Positions 23,809 to 31,135 of a stretch of DNA of 64,000 nt are shown piece by piece. Both the position numbers and the translations under genes were made by a program. The notes under the pieces were generated by a model that was not told the origin of the DNA, ran no database searches, and worked only from the letters and a program-made list of their open reading frames with translations. The DNA is from Candidatus Aenigmatarchaeota archaeon. Its GTDB lineage: Archaea; Aenigmatarchaeota; Aenigmatarchaeia; PWEA01; JACQIF01. The stretch covers positions 544,001-608,000 of the forward strand of contig CP066684.1 of assembly GCA_016432325.1 (NCBI GenBank). Reading direction: 5' to 3'. Each line of letters begins with the position of its first letter. Position 1 is the stretch's first letter.

Positions 23809-24324
23809 TCACTTTGCCCGTCTGCCGCGCATCGCGTACTTTGGTCCTTCTGGCGTCTTGACAATCTTTAGGATTTTTCTGTGTCCCGCAAGAACATTGA
23901 GGTAGGGGGCCACTTCGTTCGGCTTGATTTTGTAGCCGGCCTTCTCAGCCCGCTCGACTATATCCGGTATGCCCAAGGCCCTCCTGCTTCTTTTGATGAG
24001 ATCAAACGCGTAGACGCCAGGCCTGAAAGAGTCGCTGTCGCTTTTTGCGCGTCTTCCCGCACGTCGCTGCGGGGTTTCCTGACCGTCTTCCTGTCGAACT
24101 TCATAGTCAAACTCTGTTCTCAGATAATCTCGTAGCTCCTGGTCGCTTTCTGCAATCTTGTAAATCTGCGTTCTCAAGTCCCGCGCATGTGAGTCCAGTT
24201 CCGAAACCCGCAAGACCATGCCTATGCACTCGGCAGCGCTCTGCTCGCGAGGCTCTGCGTATTTGCGTGCTAATCGCTGAGCCTTGTAATCCAAACGTGA
24301 CTTCCTTGGCATTCGATTCCCCAT
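23809..24324 (-). CDS. Hypothetical protein with probable C-terminal winged HTH
   Basis: LIKRSRRALGIPDIVERAEKAGY..V...L..L helix pattern followed by beta hairpin. Confidence 0.55.
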   Translation of the reverse strand: MGNRMPRKSRLDYKAQRLARKYAEPREQSAAECIGMVLRVSELDSHARDLRTQIYKIAESDQELRDYLRTEFDYEVRQEDGQETPQRRAGRRAKSDSDSFRPGVYAFDLIKRSRRALGIPDIVERAEKAGYKIKPNEVAPYLNVLAGHRKILKIVKTPEGPKYAMRGRRAK

Positions 24325-24396
24325 ACAATTGATTGGTGCAAAGTTATTTAAAACAATGAGCGCCGTGGACGACCTCTTAGGCCTATTGCATCCTTG

Positions 24397-24891
24397 CTAC
24401 TTGCCCGACTTGACCGTCTCGACCGCACGGACGTCGCGAACTCGTTTCAGTTCCTCTTCCGAGAAGGGGGCAATAAAGACCAGCACGAAACCGTCTGGGT
24501 CACGGAAGGCCGCCTCGATGGTTCCCCAGTAATAGTGCCTAATCGGGACCTTGATGTTCACGTTTGCGTTCTTGAGAAGCGGGACCAATGACTCGACGCT
24601 GATCATCGCGGAGATTTTCGGCGTCTTCACCTGCTCCTTGAACACGGAGGAGTTCGTTATTGCAATGTGACCTTCAGCAATCTCAAGCTTTGCGCCGCCC
24701 GGAACCTCGAACGTCATCCCGCGGTAGCGTTCAGGAGCCGACGCTAGACCCTTCGGTAACGTTGAGCGAAACTTCTCGTCTCCGTACGCGAAGATGGGTC
24801 TGAATCCAAGTGACTCGTAGAACTTGCGCGACCTATCGAAGTCCCCTACCTTCAGGTGTATTCCAAGACCAGTAATCTTGCATTCTGACAT
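24397..24891 (-). CDS. VOC/glyoxalase family protein
   Basis: LKVGDFDRSRKFYESLGF; WG...FRDPDG. Confidence 0.88.
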   Translation of the reverse strand: MSECKITGLGIHLKVGDFDRSRKFYESLGFRPIFAYGDEKFRSTLPKGLASAPERYRGMTFEVPGGAKLEIAEGHIAITNSSVFKEQVKTPKISAMISVESLVPLLKNANVNIKVPIRHYYWGTIEAAFRDPDGFVLVFIAPFSEEELKRVRDVRAVETVKSGK

Positions 24892-25133
24892 TTCCGCAAC
24901 CTCTTTTGTGTAGCTATTTTCTACCCCTCTAGCATTCAACTTGGTTTAGTTTCACGATCGCTTGATATTGTGGTTTGGCTCAATCGGCGAACCGATAACG
25001 CGCCCCAATATGCGTTGCCTCCCCGTTTTCAACCATTCCACATTCATGACAATATTCGGCCTCCTGAGCATTTAAGGCTAACACAAGAGGTCGAACAGCG
25101 CCCGATATTATTATTTAAGGTGGTGGTGGCCGC

Positions 25134-26450
25134 TTAGGCGGTTTTGTTGCGCAGGGCGCCAAATCCGGGAATTTCAAACTCGGCCGCTCCCTTGTAGTAG
25201 TCGCGTATCCTGCTGAAGAGTGTTTTAATCTCTGGATTTTCATACGACTGCGTCTTAGTCGCTATTCGTTTCAGGGTTCTGTCGGGATCCTCGTTGAATT
25301 CCACTTGGAAATGTTCGACGCCGACCTTGAATATCAGCTCGGAGGCGTCCGTCCTGCTCCGCTTTGTTGTCGATTCGGAGAAGATCTCTTCAAGATTGTC
25401 ATCACTCAGGGGAAAATCAATCGGTTTCAGATGTTTTCCTATCCTAGGGATGATTCTAGGAAGTTGTTTCGCCAGAGTTTCGGCGTCGGGAAACATATTC
25501 GGCCACTCGCGCGTAAATATTTCGACCGCTTCAGACGTATATCCGTCGAGCGCCAGAGAGGCTATCGCGCCAGCCGCCTTGTTTCTTTCTAGAAACTGGC
25601 CTACTTGGTCTTCTGTGGGAGCGATCTTTCTCCTTAAAACATCGCGCCAGCCGTAGTTTATAGCAGCGCAGTATGCCCCCCTATCTACTTTAAAGAGTTC
25701 GACGGCGCTCAATCCTTCCAAGCCGTTCTCCTTCAAGTATGCGACAAACCCATCCTTCCCCATGGCTTTCCAACGACGCCACTTTGTATGCCGCCGTCTC
25801 AGAACATTCCTCCAGCCATGTCTCCTAGCGGCGTCGTACGCCGCATAATCCTTTTTTATGAGTTCGCCGGGGGTCAACTCGTCCAATCCATTCTCCTTCA
25901 AGTATGCAACAAACCTATCCCTGTCCATTGCCTTCCAGTTCCTACCTTTCTTGATTCTTATCAGAAGATCGGTCCAACAATACCTTCTGGCGGCATCATA
26001 CGCTCCCTTGTCTCTATCGTCAAGCTCCTTCGGACTTAGTCCTTCCAAGCCGTTCTCCTTCAAGTAATTTACAAACCCATCCTTCCCCATGGCTTTCCAA
26101 CGACGCCCTTTCTTCCGTTCCAATTTCAAAAGGTCAAGCCAACCATATACACGCGCGGCTCTGTAAGCTCCCGAATCCATTTCGTTGAGTTCCTGTGGAT
26201 GCACTCCTTCAAATCCGTTCTCCTTCAGGTAGCCGGCAAAATCCTCTTTGGTCATTCTGCTCCAATCTCTCTGCTGGGTTCCAGGTATAACATCAAGCCA
26301 ATCGTATCTTCTAGCGGCCTGGTAGGCCCCCTGGTCTTTTCTACTAAGCTCCCCATGGTTCAGCTTATTCAAACCGTTCTCTTTCAAGTAAGCAACGAAT
26401 CCGTCCTTGTCCATCTCTTTCCAGTTTCTTGGCTGTCGCGCCATGTTCAT
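25134..26450 (-). CDS. Tandem helical-repeat protein C (5 x ~54-aa repeats + conserved C-terminal domain)
   Basis: WxxMxKxGFVxYLKENGL...ELxxxDxGAYxAAxxxGW repeats; ATGA overlap with upstream gene. Confidence 0.85.
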   Translation of the reverse strand: MNMARQPRNWKEMDKDGFVAYLKENGLNKLNHGELSRKDQGAYQAARRYDWLDVIPGTQQRDWSRMTKEDFAGYLKENGFEGVHPQELNEMDSGAYRAARVYGWLDLLKLERKKGRRWKAMGKDGFVNYLKENGLEGLSPKELDDRDKGAYDAARRYCWTDLLIRIKKGRNWKAMDRDRFVAYLKENGLDELTPGELIKKDYAAYDAARRHGWRNVLRRRHTKWRRWKAMGKDGFVAYLKENGLEGLSAVELFKVDRGAYCAAINYGWRDVLRRKIAPTEDQVGQFLERNKAAGAIASLALDGYTSEAVEIFTREWPNMFPDAETLAKQLPRIIPRIGKHLKPIDFPLSDDNLEEIFSESTTKRSRTDASELIFKVGVEHFQVEFNEDPDRTLKRIATKTQSYENPEIKTLFSRIRDYYKGAAEFEIPGFGALRNKTA

Positions 26451-27913
26451 GCCTCTCTCAGTTTCCCGAAGCCCGGTATCTCGAACTCCATCGCGTTTCT
26501 ATAGTATTCGTGGACTCTCTTGAAAATGCTTCTAACTTCGGCCTTCTGTTGCGTGTTCACCATTCGTTCCAGCTCGGAAAGGACAGATCGTGGGTCGGCG
26601 TTGAATGTCGCCTGGTAGTGCTGGACTCCTATCTCATAAACAATTCCAGCGAGTTCCTTCCTGGTTGCTTTCGGCAAGTCCTTTGAAAATATCGTCTGGA
26701 GGCGGTCTTCATTGACCGGAAAATCCAGCGGCTTCAAGTGCTTTCCTATCTTGGGGACTATTCTGGGTAGCTGTTTTGCGAGCGTCGCGGCTACCGGAAA
26801 GGCGTTGGGCCATTCGCGCGCGAGTATGTCAACCACGTCGGAGGCGTAGCCGTCAACTGCCAGCGAGGCTATCGCGCTGGCGGCTTTGTTGTTCGCGAGG
26901 AACTTTTTTGCCTGGGTTTCTCTCTGGGCGATCTGTCTTTTCAACAGATCGAGCCACCCGTGTGTGCGAGCTGCTGCGTATGCCCCGCTATCTTTTCTAG
27001 CAAGTTCGCTGGGCGTCAATGTGTCCCATCCATTCGCTTCTAGGTAAGCAAGAAATTCTTCCCTACCAATATTCTTCCAATCTCTCCTCTTTCGTATTTG
27101 CCTTTTCAAAACGTCAAGCCAGTCATGCCTTAGAGCAGCTCCATACGCTTTATCGTCCCTTTTTTGGAGTTCCTCGGGGCTCAATTCAAACAACCCGCGA
27201 TCCTTGAGATATTCAATAAATCCCTTCTTGCCCATAGTCTCCCAGTAATGTCCTTCTGTCGGAGCCCTCCTTAGGATGTCTGTCCAACCGTATTTCTCGG
27301 CAGCATAACTCGCATGCCTGTCTCGCTTCTTAAGTTCGCCACGACTCAGGCCGGCTAACCCCTTATTCGTCAGGTATTGTTCGAATCCCGCTTTCCCCAA
27401 GTTCTTCCAATCTACCTCTTCTTTATCTCTCTTAGTCCTCACAACGTCAAGCCAGCCGTGATTTTTAGCGGCTTCGTATGCTTTTTTATCGATTGTTTGT
27501 AATTCGCCGCGACTCAATTTGTCTAGGTTTCTTTTTTGCAGATACTTGACAAATCCTTCCTTACCCATCGCACTCCAATTCCTTCCACGTGGCTGCTCCC
27601 TTTTCACGATGCTAATCCAGCCGTTTCTACAGGCGGCAGAGTAGGCTCTCAAATCCCTCGTCTGCAGTTCGCCGCGACTCAACCCATCCAACCCCCTCTC
27701 TTTCAGGTAAGCAACGAATCCCTCCTTGCCCATCCCTTCCCAGTCTATTCGCTCTCTTTTTACAGCATCGATCCAGCCGTGTACCTTTGCGGCTTCGTAG
27801 GCAGCCGGGTCTCTTTTCCTAAATTCCCCACGAGGCAAGCCTTCCAAGCCCCTTTCTGCCAGATATTCGATGAATCCGTTTTTGTCCATCTCTTTCCAAC
27901 GCTGTCTAGCCAT
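26447..27913 (-). CDS. Tandem helical-repeat protein B (6 repeats + conserved C-terminal domain)
   Basis: Same repeat; C-terminal AIASLAxDGY...EFEIPGFG. Confidence 0.85.
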   Translation of the reverse strand: MARQRWKEMDKNGFIEYLAERGLEGLPRGEFRKRDPAAYEAAKVHGWIDAVKRERIDWEGMGKEGFVAYLKERGLDGLSRGELQTRDLRAYSAACRNGWISIVKREQPRGRNWSAMGKEGFVKYLQKRNLDKLSRGELQTIDKKAYEAAKNHGWLDVVRTKRDKEEVDWKNLGKAGFEQYLTNKGLAGLSRGELKKRDRHASYAAEKYGWTDILRRAPTEGHYWETMGKKGFIEYLKDRGLFELSPEELQKRDDKAYGAALRHDWLDVLKRQIRKRRDWKNIGREEFLAYLEANGWDTLTPSELARKDSGAYAAARTHGWLDLLKRQIAQRETQAKKFLANNKAASAIASLAVDGYASDVVDILAREWPNAFPVAATLAKQLPRIVPKIGKHLKPLDFPVNEDRLQTIFSKDLPKATRKELAGIVYEIGVQHYQATFNADPRSVLSELERMVNTQQKAEVRSIFKRVHEYYRNAMEFEIPGFGKLREA

Positions 27914-29060
27914 GCCGAACACCTTTCATCTTCCCAAATCCAGGTATCTCGAACTCGGCCACAGCACTGTAGTATTCATGTATTCTACAGAAGATGTTTC
28001 TCACTCTCGGATTTTCATACGATTGCGTCTTGGCGTGCATTTTCTCCAGTGTTGCTGCTGGGTCTCTGTTGAATTGAAGTTGGAAATATTCGACGCCGAC
28101 ATTCAAGATTATGTCGGACGCTAGCATGTGGACTCTTTGTGGAACGTGTTCCGAAAATATTAGTTCAAGGTTTTCATTGTTTATGGGGAAATCCAGTGGT
28201 TTCACGTGCTTGCCTACACTGGGCACTATTCTAGGAAGTTGCCTCGCCAGCTCTTCTGCGTCAGGAAACACGCTTGGCCACTCCAGCGCCAATATGTCAG
28301 CCACATCGGAAATGTATCCATCGAACGCAAGTGAAGCTATCGCGTTAGCACTCTGGTTGCTCTCTAGGAATTGCTTTGCCTGCCTTTCTCTCGGGAACGT
28401 CTTTCTCTTCAGTATGTCCAACCAGCCGTGTTTACGAGCGGCTTTGTATGCACCGGGATCCTTTTCAGAGAGGCCTGTCGGGCTCAAGTTCTCCCATCCG
28501 TTCTTTTGCAGATAGTCAATGAAACCCCTCCTCCCCATCTCCTCCCAGTCCCTCGGCGCCCGGCGCGTTCTTTTCAATGCGTCCAACCAGCCGTGTTCGC
28601 GAGCGGCATCATAGGCGCCCGGATCCCTTCTCGCAAGCTCCTTGGGACCCAGCTCCCCCAGCCCTTCTTCCTCCATATAGGAGACGAAGCCCTCTCTGTC
28701 CATCTTCCCCCAGTTCCTTGCTTTCCGTTTCCCTCTCTTCAACACATCCAGCCAGCCGTACTTTTTAGCGGCACGATACGCATCTCCGTCTCTCTTCGCA
28801 AGTTCTGGGGGGCCTACATCGGCCAATCCGTTCTCTCTTAAATATTCGACGAACCTTTCCTTTCCCGTAACGCCCAAGTCCCTCCTGTCTGGGTTCTTTG
28901 CCTTCAAATCCATCCAAGATTCGTGGGCGGCGTCGTATACTAGAGGATTTCTTCTTCGAACCGTTGCTATGTCCTGTTCGTCCATTCCCCTCTCTTTCAG
29001 AAAACCGACGAATCCATCTTCGCCCATTTCCTTCCAGAACTCTTTGTTCCGCGTCATCAC
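27906..29060 (-). CDS. Tandem helical-repeat protein A (4 repeats + conserved C-terminal domain)
   Basis: Same repeat and C-terminal domain; overlaps helicase stop. Confidence 0.85.
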   Translation of the reverse strand: MMTRNKEFWKEMGEDGFVGFLKERGMDEQDIATVRRRNPLVYDAAHESWMDLKAKNPDRRDLGVTGKERFVEYLRENGLADVGPPELAKRDGDAYRAAKKYGWLDVLKRGKRKARNWGKMDREGFVSYMEEEGLGELGPKELARRDPGAYDAAREHGWLDALKRTRRAPRDWEEMGRRGFIDYLQKNGWENLSPTGLSEKDPGAYKAARKHGWLDILKRKTFPRERQAKQFLESNQSANAIASLAFDGYISDVADILALEWPSVFPDAEELARQLPRIVPSVGKHVKPLDFPINNENLELIFSEHVPQRVHMLASDIILNVGVEYFQLQFNRDPAATLEKMHAKTQSYENPRVRNIFCRIHEYYSAVAEFEIPGFGKMKGVRHG

Positions 29061-31135
29061 TTCCCCCTCTTCCTGTCGCCTGCAAAGCTCATCTTGATGA
29101 CCCCGGGCGCGGCCTTGCCGCTCTTTCTCAATACGTAGAGGTCCATTCTGCTCGAACTCACGTTTGCGTGGTTGTCCTCACACTCGAAGCCGTAGAGCCT
29201 GAAGTTGTCCATCAGGTCGTTTCTGTCGGCATCGTCAAAATGCTGCGAAGGCACGACTACGATGGCCGAACCGTCGGACTTGAGAACGCGGTTGACCTCC
29301 TGCAGAACGATGGAACGCTCCTTTTTCGGCTCGGCTATGTGGAGGGCCAGAGAGAGGTTGACGAATCCAAAGCTACCATCGCGGTAGGGAAGCGACGAGA
29401 ACGTTCCTTCGGCGTGTGTACTATATGTGAGGCCGAGCTTGCCGCGACCGACCTTGAGGTTGGCTCTGTTGATGTCCAATATATAGGTGGGATGCCCACC
29501 GTGATAAGCGAGCATGCCCGCGCCGCCCGCGAGGTCGAGCCAAGGCTCGCTTGGAGCCAGCTTCTCTGCCACAGGCACGTATATGCTGGCCGCCTTCTTC
29601 GCGCCGCTGTAGTTCGGGTACATCTCGGCTATCTGCTTGGCGACCTCCGGATTCTTTTTAATTCTTCGCAAGGCTCCATCGGTTCCTATGCTCGGCCACT
29701 TCATGTAGTAGTCGAGGACTATCCTGTTGGTCGTCTTGATGGAGTTTTTAATCTTCGGGACCGTGCTCCGCCCGTCCATGTTCAAGAGGTCCTCTCTGGT
29801 TAGCTTGTAGCCTGACATGAGGTAGTCGACCACGCGTTCCTTCGCCTTGAGCATGTCGTACTGGGCCTGATCGAGAGATTTCCTTGCATCGCCCGGATAC
29901 TGGGCAAGGATGTTGTAGACGGTCACGCGCTCCTTCCTCATCTCCCCCGGGCGGACGGTTCTCTTTATGCGCTGGTTGTATTCGGCCGGTGTCCACGGAA
30001 GAGATAAATTCACGACCGCTGTGGCGGCCGTCAGGTCCACGCCCTCGTTCATGACTCCCGTGGAGATAAGAACCTTTGCGCGCGGATCCGTCTGGAACTT
30101 CCGTCTAATACTTTCCCGCTCGCCGTTGGCCACGTCCACATCGCCACTGATTGATACGGCACCATAGTTGGCGTAGCGTCTCTCGAGCTTGCCGACGATG
30201 CCTTCCTTGAGATGCGTGAAGACCAAGACCTTTCCACGCTTCGTTTCGCTCTCCACTATCTCGTCGAGCTTTTCGTACTTCGGCGAGACTGCCAGACCGT
30301 TTGTGATAAGGCTCTGGTCGGCAAGGGATGTATCGAGCAAAATCTTTTCCAGTTGTTTTATCTTCTTGCCGGGATGTAGCCGCTTCTCCAAGACGTCGTT
30401 GTAGGCCTCGAGCCAGCGACCGTCCATTTCAAGCATGACGTTCCGCTCCTTCCACTGGGGGAGTGCGTGACCTATGTAGTCTTGGGCGTTGCCGCGAATC
30501 ATTTTCCTCTGTATCAGGTGCTTGAAAACCTGAGGATCGTTCCAATAGATTGCCTCAAACTTCTGCCTCGCCTCCCTGTTTATGTCAGGGCTGTCTGAGA
30601 GCGGATATTCTTGAGGCTCCAACAGATGCATCAGCATATAGACATCGCTGATGGTATTGGGAACCGGTGTTCCGGAAAGTAGCGTAACGTACTCAGGATC
30701 TTCCGCGAGGCTGCGGATACTCTGGCTCCTGATGGCGCTGGGATTCTTGGTGTTGTGAACCTCGTCGAGAATGATATGGTCGAACCCATTCCTTTTCATC
30801 TTTCTGATAAACCCGTCCTTCCCGTGGGAGAGGAAGTCATAGTGAACTATCGTCCATTCGCTCGTGCCGTCCCATTTCTGGTAGCTGTCAACCGTCAGGT
30901 CAAAGACTTCCTGACCTCTAGGATATGCCCATGTCTCGATTTCATCCTTCCATTTAGACTTGACCGAGTTTGGGCAGACCACCAGGGCCTTTGTGTCGGT
31001 GTCATCACGTCTTATGACATTGTCGACGAAGACTGCCTGAGCTGATTTGTACATGCCCATGTCATGGGCTATAAGGAACCTCTTCTTCTCATACGCGCTC
31101 TTGACGCTGACATATTGAAATGGCTGCAGTTTCAT
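29057..31135 (-). CDS. SNF2-family helicase fused to C-terminal class I SAM-dependent methyltransferase
   Basis: HDMGMYKS (motif I), DEVH, LSGTP, EGVDLTAA, QRIKRTVRPG; LDLAGGAG, LPYRDGSF, EVNRVLKSDG. Confidence 0.88.
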   Translation of the reverse strand: MKLQPFQYVSVKSAYEKKRFLIAHDMGMYKSAQAVFVDNVIRRDDTDTKALVVCPNSVKSKWKDEIETWAYPRGQEVFDLTVDSYQKWDGTSEWTIVHYDFLSHGKDGFIRKMKRNGFDHIILDEVHNTKNPSAIRSQSIRSLAEDPEYVTLLSGTPVPNTISDVYMLMHLLEPQEYPLSDSPDINREARQKFEAIYWNDPQVFKHLIQRKMIRGNAQDYIGHALPQWKERNVMLEMDGRWLEAYNDVLEKRLHPGKKIKQLEKILLDTSLADQSLITNGLAVSPKYEKLDEIVESETKRGKVLVFTHLKEGIVGKLERRYANYGAVSISGDVDVANGERESIRRKFQTDPRAKVLISTGVMNEGVDLTAATAVVNLSLPWTPAEYNQRIKRTVRPGEMRKERVTVYNILAQYPGDARKSLDQAQYDMLKAKERVVDYLMSGYKLTREDLLNMDGRSTVPKIKNSIKTTNRIVLDYYMKWPSIGTDGALRRIKKNPEVAKQIAEMYPNYSGAKKAASIYVPVAEKLAPSEPWLDLAGGAGMLAYHGGHPTYILDINRANLKVGRGKLGLTYSTHAEGTFSSLPYRDGSFGFVNLSLALHIAEPKKERSIVLQEVNRVLKSDGSAIVVVPSQHFDDADRNDLMDNFRLYGFECEDNHANVSSSRMDLYVLRKSGKAAPGVIKMSFAGDRKRGK

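What the first reader, a model, noticed from the sequence alone, without database searches (positions are those of the whole stretch)
25134..31135. Candidate new system: SNF2 helicase-methyltransferase fusion coupled to three modular helical-repeat proteins
Seen: four genes with overlapping start/stop codons (29057-29060, 27906-27913, 26447-26450) in a visibly AT-richer island. Gene 1 is a SNF2 ATPase with a C-terminal SAM-binding domain. Genes 2-4 are paralogues carrying 4, 6 and 5 copies of a ~52-56-aa three-helix repeat (WxxMgKxGFvxYLxexGL..LsxxELxxrDxxAYxAAxxhGWld.l + basic linker). All three end in one shared ~150-aa domain (AIASLAxDGY, EWP..FP, QLPRI.P.IGKH.KP.DFP, EFEIPGFG). Known: SNF2 plus MTase pairings occur in DISARM, type ISP R-M and DarB-like proteins, and type I R-M uses swappable specificity subunits with a conserved docking region. 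Inference: the repeat arrays are HTH-like nucleic-acid readers, the shared C-terminal domain docks on the helicase-MTase, and the result is a multi-specificity defence or chromatin-targeting machine. I do not recognise this gene combination.
Basis: partly seen in the sequence, partly recalled or inferred. Interest (0 to 1): 0.9.

Follow-up and report, generated by a model that had tools for sequence, protein, structure and literature searches.

The report
Motor-methyltransferase with swappable DNA-reader adaptors
A tiny archaeon carries an undescribed four-gene module in which three interchangeable proteins, each a string of DNA-reader-like repeats ending in one shared docking domain, appear to steer a fused DNA-motor/methyltransferase enzyme to different targets.

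Summary
There are four translationally coupled minus-strand genes. One encodes a SNF2 ATPase fused to a class-I SAM methyltransferase. The other three are paralogues with 4, 6 and 5 copies of a ~55-aa three-helix repeat, each ending in a shared ~160-aa helical C-terminal domain (C-dom).

The docking inference is supported by three lines of evidence:
- The C-dom family has 104 representatives among 1.84 billion proteins. It lies next to a SNF2-MTase gene in all 12 informative loci examined.
- In two relatives the C-dom is fused to the N-terminus of the SNF2-MTase.
- A complex prediction scored 0.68 against 0.00 for the best control, and it uses the C-dom's most conserved motifs.

- Relatives carry bona fide HTH arrays in front of the same C-dom.
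- The window's repeat is related to repeats that flank GIY-YIG nucleases.
- The arrays are strongly basic.
- Variation concentrates at two positions on helices 2 and 3.

The methyltransferase is not a canonical DNA amino-methyltransferase. No nuclease is present, no known defence family is matched, and I found no paper describing the system. The biological role (defence or regulation) remains open.

This scan noted the same kind of module earlier on two other genomes, with other repeat types and an inactive AAG-like protein.

The parts
29057..31135 (-). Gene 1 (P0001, 692 aa): SNF2 ATPase fused to a class-I SAM methyltransferase
   Evidence: Pfam gives SNF2-rel_dom aa 20-259, Helicase_C aa 286-397 and Methyltransf_11 aa 541-625. 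DExH, motif III, motif VI and MTase motif I are conserved in 30 homologues. The Walker A is the family-wide variant GM[FY]K[TS].
30359..31135 (-). N-terminal residues and SNF2 N-lobe of gene 1, holding the predicted docking surface for the adaptors (aa 3-12, 36-43, 71-72, 215-220)
   Evidence: Interface residues listed.
29261..29539 (-). Methyltransferase core of gene 1 (aa 533-625)
   Evidence: Methyltransf_11/25 hits. 12 of 30 homologues also hit Methyltransf_8 (Rrp8 type), best E 7.6e-10. The only PDB sequence matches are generic SAM MTases.
27906..29060 (-). Gene 2, adaptor 1 (P0002, 384 aa): 4 repeats (28395-29042) plus C-dom (27909-28388)
26447..27922 (-). Gene 3, adaptor 2 (P0003, 491 aa from GTG 27922, or ATG 27913): 6 repeats (26927-27904) plus C-dom (26450-26920)
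25134..26450 (-). Gene 4, adaptor 3 (P0004, 438 aa): 5 repeats (25620-26429) plus C-dom (25137-25613)
   Evidence: The C-dom model has pLDDT 90 and the three-repeat model pLDDT 89.

Best explanation
The locus encodes a targeted motor-methyltransferase. The enzyme is one polypeptide: a SNF2-type double-stranded-DNA translocase fused to a class-I SAM methyltransferase. Three adaptor proteins compete for, or alternate on, one docking site on the N-terminal lobe of the ATPase.

Each adaptor binds through a constant, all-helical C-terminal domain (C-dom). The C-dom's conserved FNxxP and FEIPGxG motifs form the contact. The variable N-terminal part of each adaptor is a basic array of 4-6 three-helix, HTH-like modules. 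The array reads a long DNA site, with specificity carried mainly by two hypervariable positions on helices 2 and 3 of each unit. Docking brings the motor and its methyltransferase to that site, where ATP-driven translocation or remodelling gives the methyltransferase access to its substrate.

What is shown: gene structure, conserved linkage, gene fusion in relatives, and intact catalytic motifs.
What is supported by prediction: the docking interface.
What is inferred: DNA binding by the arrays, the nature of the methylated substrate (a DNA purine is the best guess), and the biological role.
For: Linkage. C-dom proteins lie directly beside, and mostly overlap, a SNF2-MTase gene in the window and in L005, L007, L009, L011, L012, L031, L032, the P0202 contig, G357, G152 and G240. 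A profile search found 104 C-dom representatives in 1.84e9 proteins. The domain is almost always C-terminal, behind 0-600 variable residues.

Rosetta stone. In P0028 (866 aa) the C-dom (aa 5-151) is joined by a short linker to the PFQ start of the SNF2-MTase. P0222 (1266 aa) has the same order.

Complex prediction. The score was 0.68 and the best of 3 controls 0.00. That mark was reached by 58 of 80 solved complexes and 2 of 110 mismatched pairs; the counts hold only roughly because my own alignments were used. The runs agree in at least 63% of contacts and the partner pLDDT is at least 71. The contact residues are the most conserved C-dom columns (F112, N113, P116, Y146, I154, P155, G156).

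Reader arrays.
- 20 or more of 94 family members carry arrays of true HTH domains (HTH_23/28, Sigma70_r4, best E 1e-33) in front of the same C-dom.
- L012 has two adaptors with an identical C-dom but different N-terminal module types.
- The window's unit is modelled as three helices at pLDDT 89.
- The arrays have pI 9.4-9.7 and net charge +7 to +17.
- The unit is related to the repeats flanking GIY-YIG nuclease domains: hhalign probability 95%, E 3e-8, and database-wide E 7e-10 to 8e-7.
- Columns 29 and 37 of the unit are the most variable in three independent arrays.

Catalytic motifs. DExH, motifs III and VI, and the SAM-binding motif I are conserved in 30 homologues.

Hint at a DNA-base substrate. 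A divergent branch of the same system carries an AAG/MPG-like gene in two different gene orders.
Against: No experiment or direct test shows DNA binding. Fold searches of the repeat model and the C-dom model found no informative match.

The methyltransferase is of the generic Methyltransf_11 type, with Rrp8/Bmt2-like side hits (rRNA m1A enzymes), and it lacks the DPPY-type motif of DNA amino-methyltransferases. Its substrate could therefore be RNA or protein.

The Walker A lacks the second glycine (GM[FY]K[TS]).

The window's genome has neither the DUF488 gene nor the AAG-like gene that accompany the module elsewhere.
Confidence: 0.62

Rival explanations
1. It is an anti-virus or anti-plasmid defence system. 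The adaptors recognise foreign or self DNA sequences, and the motor-methyltransferase marks DNA for discrimination. This would be analogous in logic to type I R-M, DISARM or BREX, with several specificity subunits.
For: Distribution is patchy: the C-dom is in 4 of 371 genomes of the phylum and the SNF2-MTase in 11 of 371, and it is absent from 60 close relatives. Genomic contexts differ between loci. The adaptor genes have deviant GC3. Adaptors show lineage-specific duplication and module swapping. The best PADLOC and NCBIfam partial hits of the ATPase are ZorD, DrmD, HmaA, BrxH and DpdE. An integrase lies near the module in L012.
Against: The conserved module has no nuclease or other effector. 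Scores against defence families are far below their cut-offs (DrmD 81 bits against 610). The adaptors have no PADLOC hit. Neighbours are housekeeping genes such as EF-2, ValRS and ribosomal proteins. The AAG-like partner in relatives lacks its catalytic Glu.
Confidence: 0.3
2. It is a gene-regulatory or nucleoid-remodelling device. Sequence-specific adaptors recruit a SNF2 remodeller to chromosomal sites, and the methyltransferase modifies a DNA-bound protein or nascent RNA rather than DNA.
For: SNF2 ATPases typically displace proteins from DNA, and the best PDB match is the Sulfolobus Rad54-like SNF2 core 1z63. The MTase resembles protein, RNA or small-molecule class-I enzymes, not DNA MTases. 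There is no nuclease. The SNF2-MTase gene has native codon usage.
Against: The patchy distribution and rapid adaptor turnover are unusual for a core regulator. The linkage to an AAG-like base-flipping protein in a sister branch points to a modified DNA base.
Confidence: 0.22
3. It is an RNA or ribosome-directed helicase-methyltransferase (Rrp8/Bmt2-like m1A writer), and the repeat proteins are RNA-binding adaptors.
For: There are Methyltransf_8 hits in 12 of 30 homologues and one Bmt2 hit. In L005 and L012 the module sits beside ribosomal-protein operons.
Against: The ATPase has the SNF2 signature of dsDNA translocases, not the DEAD-box one. Relatives' adaptors are classical DNA-binding HTH arrays. 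The module is absent from most genomes of the phylum, which does not fit a ribosome-biogenesis role.
Confidence: 0.08
4. The repeat genes are unrelated neighbours, for example decayed homing-endonuclease DNA-binding modules, with no functional tie to the helicase gene.
For: The repeat unit is shared with GIY-YIG nuclease proteins, and the repeat genes differ in codon usage from gene 1.
Against: There is start/stop overlap, adjacency conserved across about 30-50% protein identity and two gene orders, fusion proteins, and a predicted interface on conserved motifs.
Confidence: 0.03

Closest known systems
Type I restriction-modification (HsdS specificity subunit on the HsdM/HsdR motor)
   Same: An ATP-dependent DNA motor and a methyltransferase are directed by exchangeable specificity subunits that share a conserved docking part.
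   Different: There is no homology. The MTase is not an N6_Mtase with an NPPY/DPPY motif, there is no HsdR nuclease, the specificity parts are tandem HTH-like arrays rather than two TRDs on a coiled coil, and the motor and MTase are one polypeptide.
SNF2-containing defence systems: DISARM (DrmD + DrmMI/II), BREX (BrxHI/II + PglX), Zorya ZorD, Hma, Dpd (DpdE)
   Same: They have a SNF2-family ATPase associated with a methyltransferase, and they give the best partial profile hits of the ATPase core.
   Different: Scores are far below the family cut-offs. None of the partner genes (DrmA/B/C, PglZ, BrxC, ZorA/B, Dpd genes) is present. None of those systems has repeat-array adaptors or the C-dom.
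Repeat modules flanking GIY-YIG nuclease domains in bacterial proteins (P0234-P0238; DUF723 / PF26058 context)
   Same: The helix 2-helix 3-GWLD part of the ~50-aa unit is shared (hhalign probability 95%), and the units are arranged in tandem.
   Different: Those proteins carry a nuclease and lack both the C-dom and a SNF2-MTase partner. Helix 1 differs.
TALE and other one-repeat-one-base readers (TALE, PPR, PUF)
   Same: Tandem, near-identical helical units vary mainly at a few fixed positions (columns 29 and 37).
   Different: The unit is ~55 aa with three helices, not 34 aa with two. No sequence or fold relation was found, and no recognition code is shown.
Eukaryotic SNF2 remodellers that assist methyltransferases (DDM1/LSH with DNA methyltransferases)
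   Same: A SNF2 motor is coupled to methylation of a chromatin-embedded target.
   Different: There the motor and enzyme are separate proteins and the enzymes are C5 DNA MTases. Here they are fused, the MTase class is different, and targeting is by dedicated adaptors.
Earlier notes of this scan on other DPANN genomes (e1-3256139, e1-2800428)
   Same: The architecture is the same: adaptors built of HTH-like repeats next to a SNF2-methyltransferase fusion.
   Different: Those loci have other repeat types (5xHTH; a ~65-aa YHGG repeat) and an inactive AAG-like third gene. This window has the GWLD-type repeat, three adaptors and no third gene.

Membership tests
SNF2-family ATPase (Pfam SNF2-rel_dom + Helicase_C) | Both domains score above the Pfam cut-offs, and motifs I, II (DExH), III and VI are present. 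| tested here: met
   82 and 74 bits against cut-offs of 24.9 and 23.5. DEVH, SGTP and QRxxRxxRxGE are conserved in 30 homologues; motif I is the variant GM[FY]K[TS].
Class-I SAM methyltransferase (Methyltransf_11) | The domain scores above the cut-off, with glycine-rich motif I and the acidic residue after strand 2. | tested here: met
   36 bits against a cut-off of 21.2. DLAGGxG and the invariant D554 are present.
DNA amino-methyltransferases of R-M systems (N6_Mtase / MethyltransfD12 type) | A (D/N/S)PP(Y/F/W) catalytic motif and a match to a DNA-MTase family. | tested here: not met
   No such Pfam, NCBIfam or PDB match was found. The motif IV region reads [VC]SLA[LF][HQ].
DISARM | DrmD equivalog score (cut-off 610 bits) together with DrmA/DrmB (DUF1998) and a DrmMI/MII methylase. 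| tested here: not met
   DrmD scores 81 bits. Neighbouring genes have no such domains.
Type I R-M | An HsdS with two TRDs, an HsdM, and an HsdR with a nuclease domain. | tested here: not met
   None of these was found by Pfam, NCBIfam or PADLOC in genes 1-4 or their neighbours.
Zorya / BREX / Dpd / Hma | Full-length match to ZorD, BrxH, DpdE or HmaA, together with their partner genes. | tested here: not met
   There are only partial ATPase-core matches, E 1e-25 to 1e-11. NCBIfam scores are 53-79 bits against cut-offs of 500-1500. The partner genes are absent.
C-dom adaptor family (unnamed; defined here by profile A2/A4) | A C-terminal ~160-aa helical domain with the WP..F, FNxxP and FxIPGxG motifs, encoded next to a SNF2-MTase. 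| tested here: met
   E 1e-72 for all three window proteins. The family has 104 representatives. The linkage is shown.
Pfam PF18780 HNH_repeat (homing-endonuclease-associated repeat) | A match of the repeat unit to the family profile. | tested here: inconclusive
   The window proteins give no hit. GYW-type units of relatives hit only weakly (E 0.016; 'faint'). hhalign of the window unit against GYW-type units gives probability 1%.
GIY-YIG-associated GWLD repeat | Profile-profile similarity of the repeat unit. | tested here: met
   hhalign probability 95%, E 2.7e-8 over helices 2-3. Database-wide E values are 7e-10 to 8e-7. The GIY-YIG domain is confirmed at or near the Pfam cut-off in P0234 and P0236.
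TALE-like repeats | 33-35-aa two-helix units with a repeat-variable di-residue. | tested here: not met
   The unit is 52-56 aa with three helices, and no Pfam TAL_effector hit was found. Only the pattern of focused variability is alike.

The most novel reading that the evidence does not exclude
The ~55-aa units form a programmable, modular DNA-reading code: the residues at unit columns 29 and 37, plus their neighbours on helices 2 and 3, would specify bases. Arrays of these units, swapped like cassettes on a universal docking domain, would direct a motor-methyltransferase that writes a non-canonical purine methyl mark. In sister lineages that mark would be read by catalytically dead AAG-like or DUF488 proteins. 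Together this would be a writer-reader epigenetic or immune system specific to ultra-small archaea.
Probability: 0.15. Interest if true: 0.92.

Novelty: categorically new. Interest (0 to 1): 0.82.

Why it matters
If the model holds, this is a previously undescribed way of aiming a DNA motor and a methyltransferase. A universal docking domain carries interchangeable arrays of small DNA-reading modules.

It would add a new class of epigenetic or immune machinery in DPANN archaea, organisms with very few genes to spare. It would define a new protein-protein docking domain. It may also offer a new modular DNA-recognition scaffold with fixed hypervariable positions, which is of obvious interest for engineering.

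The link in sister lineages to a catalytically dead alkylpurine-glycosylase fold suggests an unusual DNA base modification that could be identified directly.

Tried and rejected
Searches that found nothing:
- A word-based homologue search with P0004 found only the window's own paralogues.
- No relative was found in 60 related genomes, in IMG/VR viral contigs with the C-dom profile, or in phage records with P0003.
- The search for related loci on genome contigs failed because the alignment had no sufficiently conserved stretch.

Fold searches:
- The C-dom model (pLDDT 90) gave no match in Foldseek PDB at E<=0.001. VIA-wide gave best Z 7.0, only generic helical bundles. The ESM atlas by shape gave TM <= 0.41. 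The atlas by features gave nothing usable.
- The three-repeat model gave nothing informative. Foldseek best was E 1.0 and VIA-wide best was Z 3.9. The unit is probably too small and the inter-unit geometry uncertain (pTM 0.49).

Other checks:
- hhalign of the window unit against GYW/HNH_repeat-like units gave probability 1%, so I do not claim that relation.
- Synteny with the sister genome was uninformative because its contig ends right after EF-2.
- The downstream ORFs (orf171 and the glyoxalase-like gene) have no counterpart in related loci and are not counted as parts.
- DUF488 and the AAG-like genes are absent from this genome.
- Literature searches for the gene combination found no description.
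Full report
**1. Observation**

The region holds four minus-strand ORFs whose starts and stops overlap: 29057-31135, 27906-29060, 26447-27922 (or ATG 27913) and 25134-26450 (translations).

Gene 1 (P0001, 692 aa) has SNF2-rel_dom, Helicase_C and Methyltransf_11/25 domains above the Pfam cut-offs.

Genes 2-4 (P0002-P0004) have no Pfam, PADLOC, PHROG or NCBIfam family. They contain 4, 6 and 5 units of 52-56 aa with the consensus W..MgK.GF..YL.e.GL..Ls..EL..rD..AY.AA..hGWlD.l followed by a basic linker. The units are also detectable at DNA level as 15 copies at about 165-nt spacing.

All three proteins end in a shared ~160-aa domain, here called the C-dom, that is 52-55% identical between paralogues.

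The region is AT-richer than the rest of the window. By codon position this is a GC3 drop in the three adaptor genes (0.56-0.58). It extends to the two downstream ORFs (0.59 and 0.66). Gene 1 (0.71) resembles the flanking housekeeping genes (0.69-0.77).

The host genome is a single 875-kb contig estimated 90% complete. Archaeal-type EF-2 and ValRS lie next door. The closest SNF2-MTase homologues with a name are annotated as Candidatus Pacearchaeota.

**2. The SNF2-MTase fusion is a family, and it always travels with C-dom proteins**

About 35 full-length fusions at 30-50% identity occur in metagenomes. I first looked up the contigs of five of them.
- In L005, L007, L009 and L012 the gene overlapping the 3' end of the fusion encodes a protein with an N-terminal repeat array and the same C-dom. 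There are two such genes in L009 and two in L012.
- In L011 the adaptor gene sits upstream of the fusion instead.

A profile of the C-dom searched against 1.84 billion representative proteins found 104 members. The domain is nearly always at the C-terminus, behind 0-600 variable residues.

I then sampled four of these members from the adaptor side.
- P0141 and P0165 lie next to a SNF2-MTase.
- P0202 also lies next to one, together with two further adaptors.
- P0153 follows a truncated 5' gene on a short contig, so that locus is uninformative.

Three genomes of the same class (G357, G152, G240) carry a divergent branch in which an HTH-array protein with a weak C-dom match lies upstream of an 855-aa SNF2-MTase.

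In total, all 12 informative loci show adjacency.

Two proteins are Rosetta stones. In P0028 the C-dom (aa 5-151) runs through a short linker straight into the PFQ start of the SNF2-MTase. P0222 has the same order.

**3. Docking**

The C-dom was folded with a 58-sequence alignment. It is an all-helical domain at mean pLDDT 90 and pTM 0.81, and no fold relative was recognised.

A complex prediction of P0001 with the C-dom, both given as alignments, passed the tool's mark.
- The score was 0.68 and the best of 3 controls was 0.00.
- That mark was reached by 58 of 80 solved complexes and 2 of 110 mismatched pairs. These counts hold only roughly because my own alignments were used.
- The runs agree in at least 63% of their contacts, and the partner pLDDT is at least 71.

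The touching residues of the C-dom (109-116 and 146-160 of the modelled piece) are its most conserved columns, FNxxP, Y146 and the I-P-G of FEIPGxG. On the enzyme they are residues 3-12, 36-43, 71-72 and 215-220, that is, the N-terminal peptide and the first RecA lobe. This geometry agrees with the fusion proteins, where the end of the C-dom is a few residues from the start of the ATPase.

This is a model's confidence, not a measurement. It converges with the linkage and the fusions.

**4. The arrays**

At least three kinds of N-terminal module sit in front of the same C-dom across the family.
- The window's type. My local HMM finds it in 46 of 108 members.
- A GYW-type unit with weak PF18780 HNH_repeat similarity.
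- Arrays of bona fide HTH domains (HTH_23, HTH_28, Sigma70_r4; best E 1e-33) in at least 20 of 94 members.

In L012 two neighbouring adaptors have identical C-doms but different N-terminal module types. The N-terminal part is therefore a swappable cassette, and wherever it is recognisable it is a DNA-binding one.

Properties of the window's unit:
- It is modelled as three helices at pLDDT 89. The inter-unit geometry is loose (pTM 0.49).
- The arrays are strongly basic, with pI 9.4-9.7 and net charge +7 to +17. Two of the three C-doms are acidic.
- The helix 2-helix 3-GWLD part is related to the tandem repeats that flank GIY-YIG nuclease domains in bacterial proteins. Database-wide E values are 7e-10 to 8e-7, GIY-YIG is confirmed at or near the Pfam cut-off in two of them, and hhalign gives probability 95%. 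Such modules plausibly read long DNA targets.

Within the window's 15 units, and independently within the near-identical units of P0127 (6 units) and P0141 (11 units), variability peaks at columns 29 and 37. Lesser peaks fall at columns 26, 30, 33, 34, 40 and 41. This is the spacing expected for one face of helix 2 and one face of helix 3, while the hydrophobic scaffold is fixed.

This agrees with separate first-reader notes (e1-5605571, e1-5605582). It fits a recognition surface but does not prove a code.

**5. The enzyme**

Among 30 homologues, DExH, motif III (SGTP), motif VI and the SAM-binding motif I with its acidic partner are conserved. Both activities are therefore probably intact.

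The Walker A is the family-wide variant GM[FY]K[TS], without the usual second glycine.

The ATPase core is closest to the Sulfolobus Rad54-like SNF2 structure 1z63. It is also close to phage helicases (phrog_62; about 25% identity).

The methyltransferase is a generic class-I enzyme. 12 of 30 homologues also hit Methyltransf_8 (Rrp8 type) and one hits Bmt2. PDB sequence matches are only weak ones to generic SAM MTases. There is no DPPY-type motif. It is therefore not a member of the DNA amino-methyltransferase families used by R-M systems, DISARM or BREX, and its substrate is open.

**6. Accessory genes in relatives (not in this window)**

In the window's branch a DUF488 gene follows the adaptors in L009, L012, L031 and L032, and lies close by in L005.

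In the divergent branch an AAG/MPG-like gene accompanies the module. It is upstream in L011, G152 and the P0202 contig. In G357 it is downstream and overlaps the fusion gene.

Aligned to human AAG, all three AAG-like sequences I could read replace the catalytic Glu125 by W, A or G, while keeping the intercalating Tyr127. A dead base-flipping fold linked in two gene orders suggests that the product of the system is a modified DNA purine that is read rather than excised. This is inference.

The window's genome has neither gene.

**7. Distribution**

The C-dom was found in 4 of 371 genomes of the phylum searched, and the SNF2-MTase (E<=1e-30) in 11 of 371. Many of these genomes are incomplete. 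None of 60 close relatives has the adaptor. Flanking genes differ between loci.

The module is thus accessory and mobile on evolutionary time scales. This fits a conflict system, but it does not exclude a lineage-specific regulator.

**8. Comparison and verdict**

The logic resembles type I R-M: a motor plus a methylase plus exchangeable specificity subunits with a constant docking part. It also resembles the SNF2-plus-methylase defence systems. Every membership test for those families fails. There is no nuclease, the methylase class differs, and the adaptors and their docking domain have no described relatives.

I found no paper describing the combination.

The scan itself has noted the same architecture on two other DPANN genomes, with other repeat types. 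This window adds the GWLD-type repeat, a three-adaptor locus and the minimal two-component form.

I rate the finding as real, undescribed and of high interest. My confidence is about 0.8 in docking, about 0.7 in DNA reading by the arrays and about 0.5 in a DNA-base substrate. The biological role is unresolved.

Noticed in passing
L009 13494-13853; L012 11748-12158; L031 4640-5002; L032 4159-4584; L005 12452-12826: A DUF488 (PF04343) gene follows the adaptor genes in five related loci, twice with overlapping stop/start codons. It may be a third component of the system. It is absent from this window's genome.
   Followed up: partly
L036 3341-3850 (-); L037 7553-8158 (-); L011 5303-5752 (+): An AAG/MPG-like protein is linked to the divergent branch of the system in two gene orders. 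The catalytic Glu125 equivalent is W, A or G, while Tyr127 is kept. It is probably a base-flipping reader rather than a glycosylase.
   Followed up: partly
window 23809-24939 (-): Two ORFs lie downstream of the adaptors: a 171-aa ORF with no family and a 180-aa glyoxalase-fold protein. They share the lowered GC3 of the adaptor genes (0.59 and 0.66) but have no counterpart in related loci. They may belong to the same imported tract.
   Followed up: partly
window 31048-31063 (aa 25-30 of gene 1): The Walker A of the ATPase reads GMYKS, and GM[FY]K[TS] across the family, instead of GxGKT. The second glycine is replaced by an aromatic residue in all 30 homologues.
   Followed up: partly
P0028 and P0222 (metagenomic proteins): These are natural fusions of the adaptor docking domain to the N-terminus of the SNF2-MTase. 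P0222 also has a long low-complexity basic C-terminal tail.
   Followed up: partly
L012 9131-11366: Two adjacent adaptor genes share an identical ~150-aa C-terminal domain but have unrelated N-terminal module types. This implies recent cassette exchange or gene conversion.
   Followed up: no
window 38673-38759 (+): tRNA-Leu(CAG) with a long variable arm. Another note of this scan has already studied it.
   Followed up: no
G001 contig C24 (L033): The sister-genus assembly breaks right after the EF-2 gene, exactly where this window's low-GC3 tract begins. Presence or absence of the module there cannot be judged.
   Followed up: no
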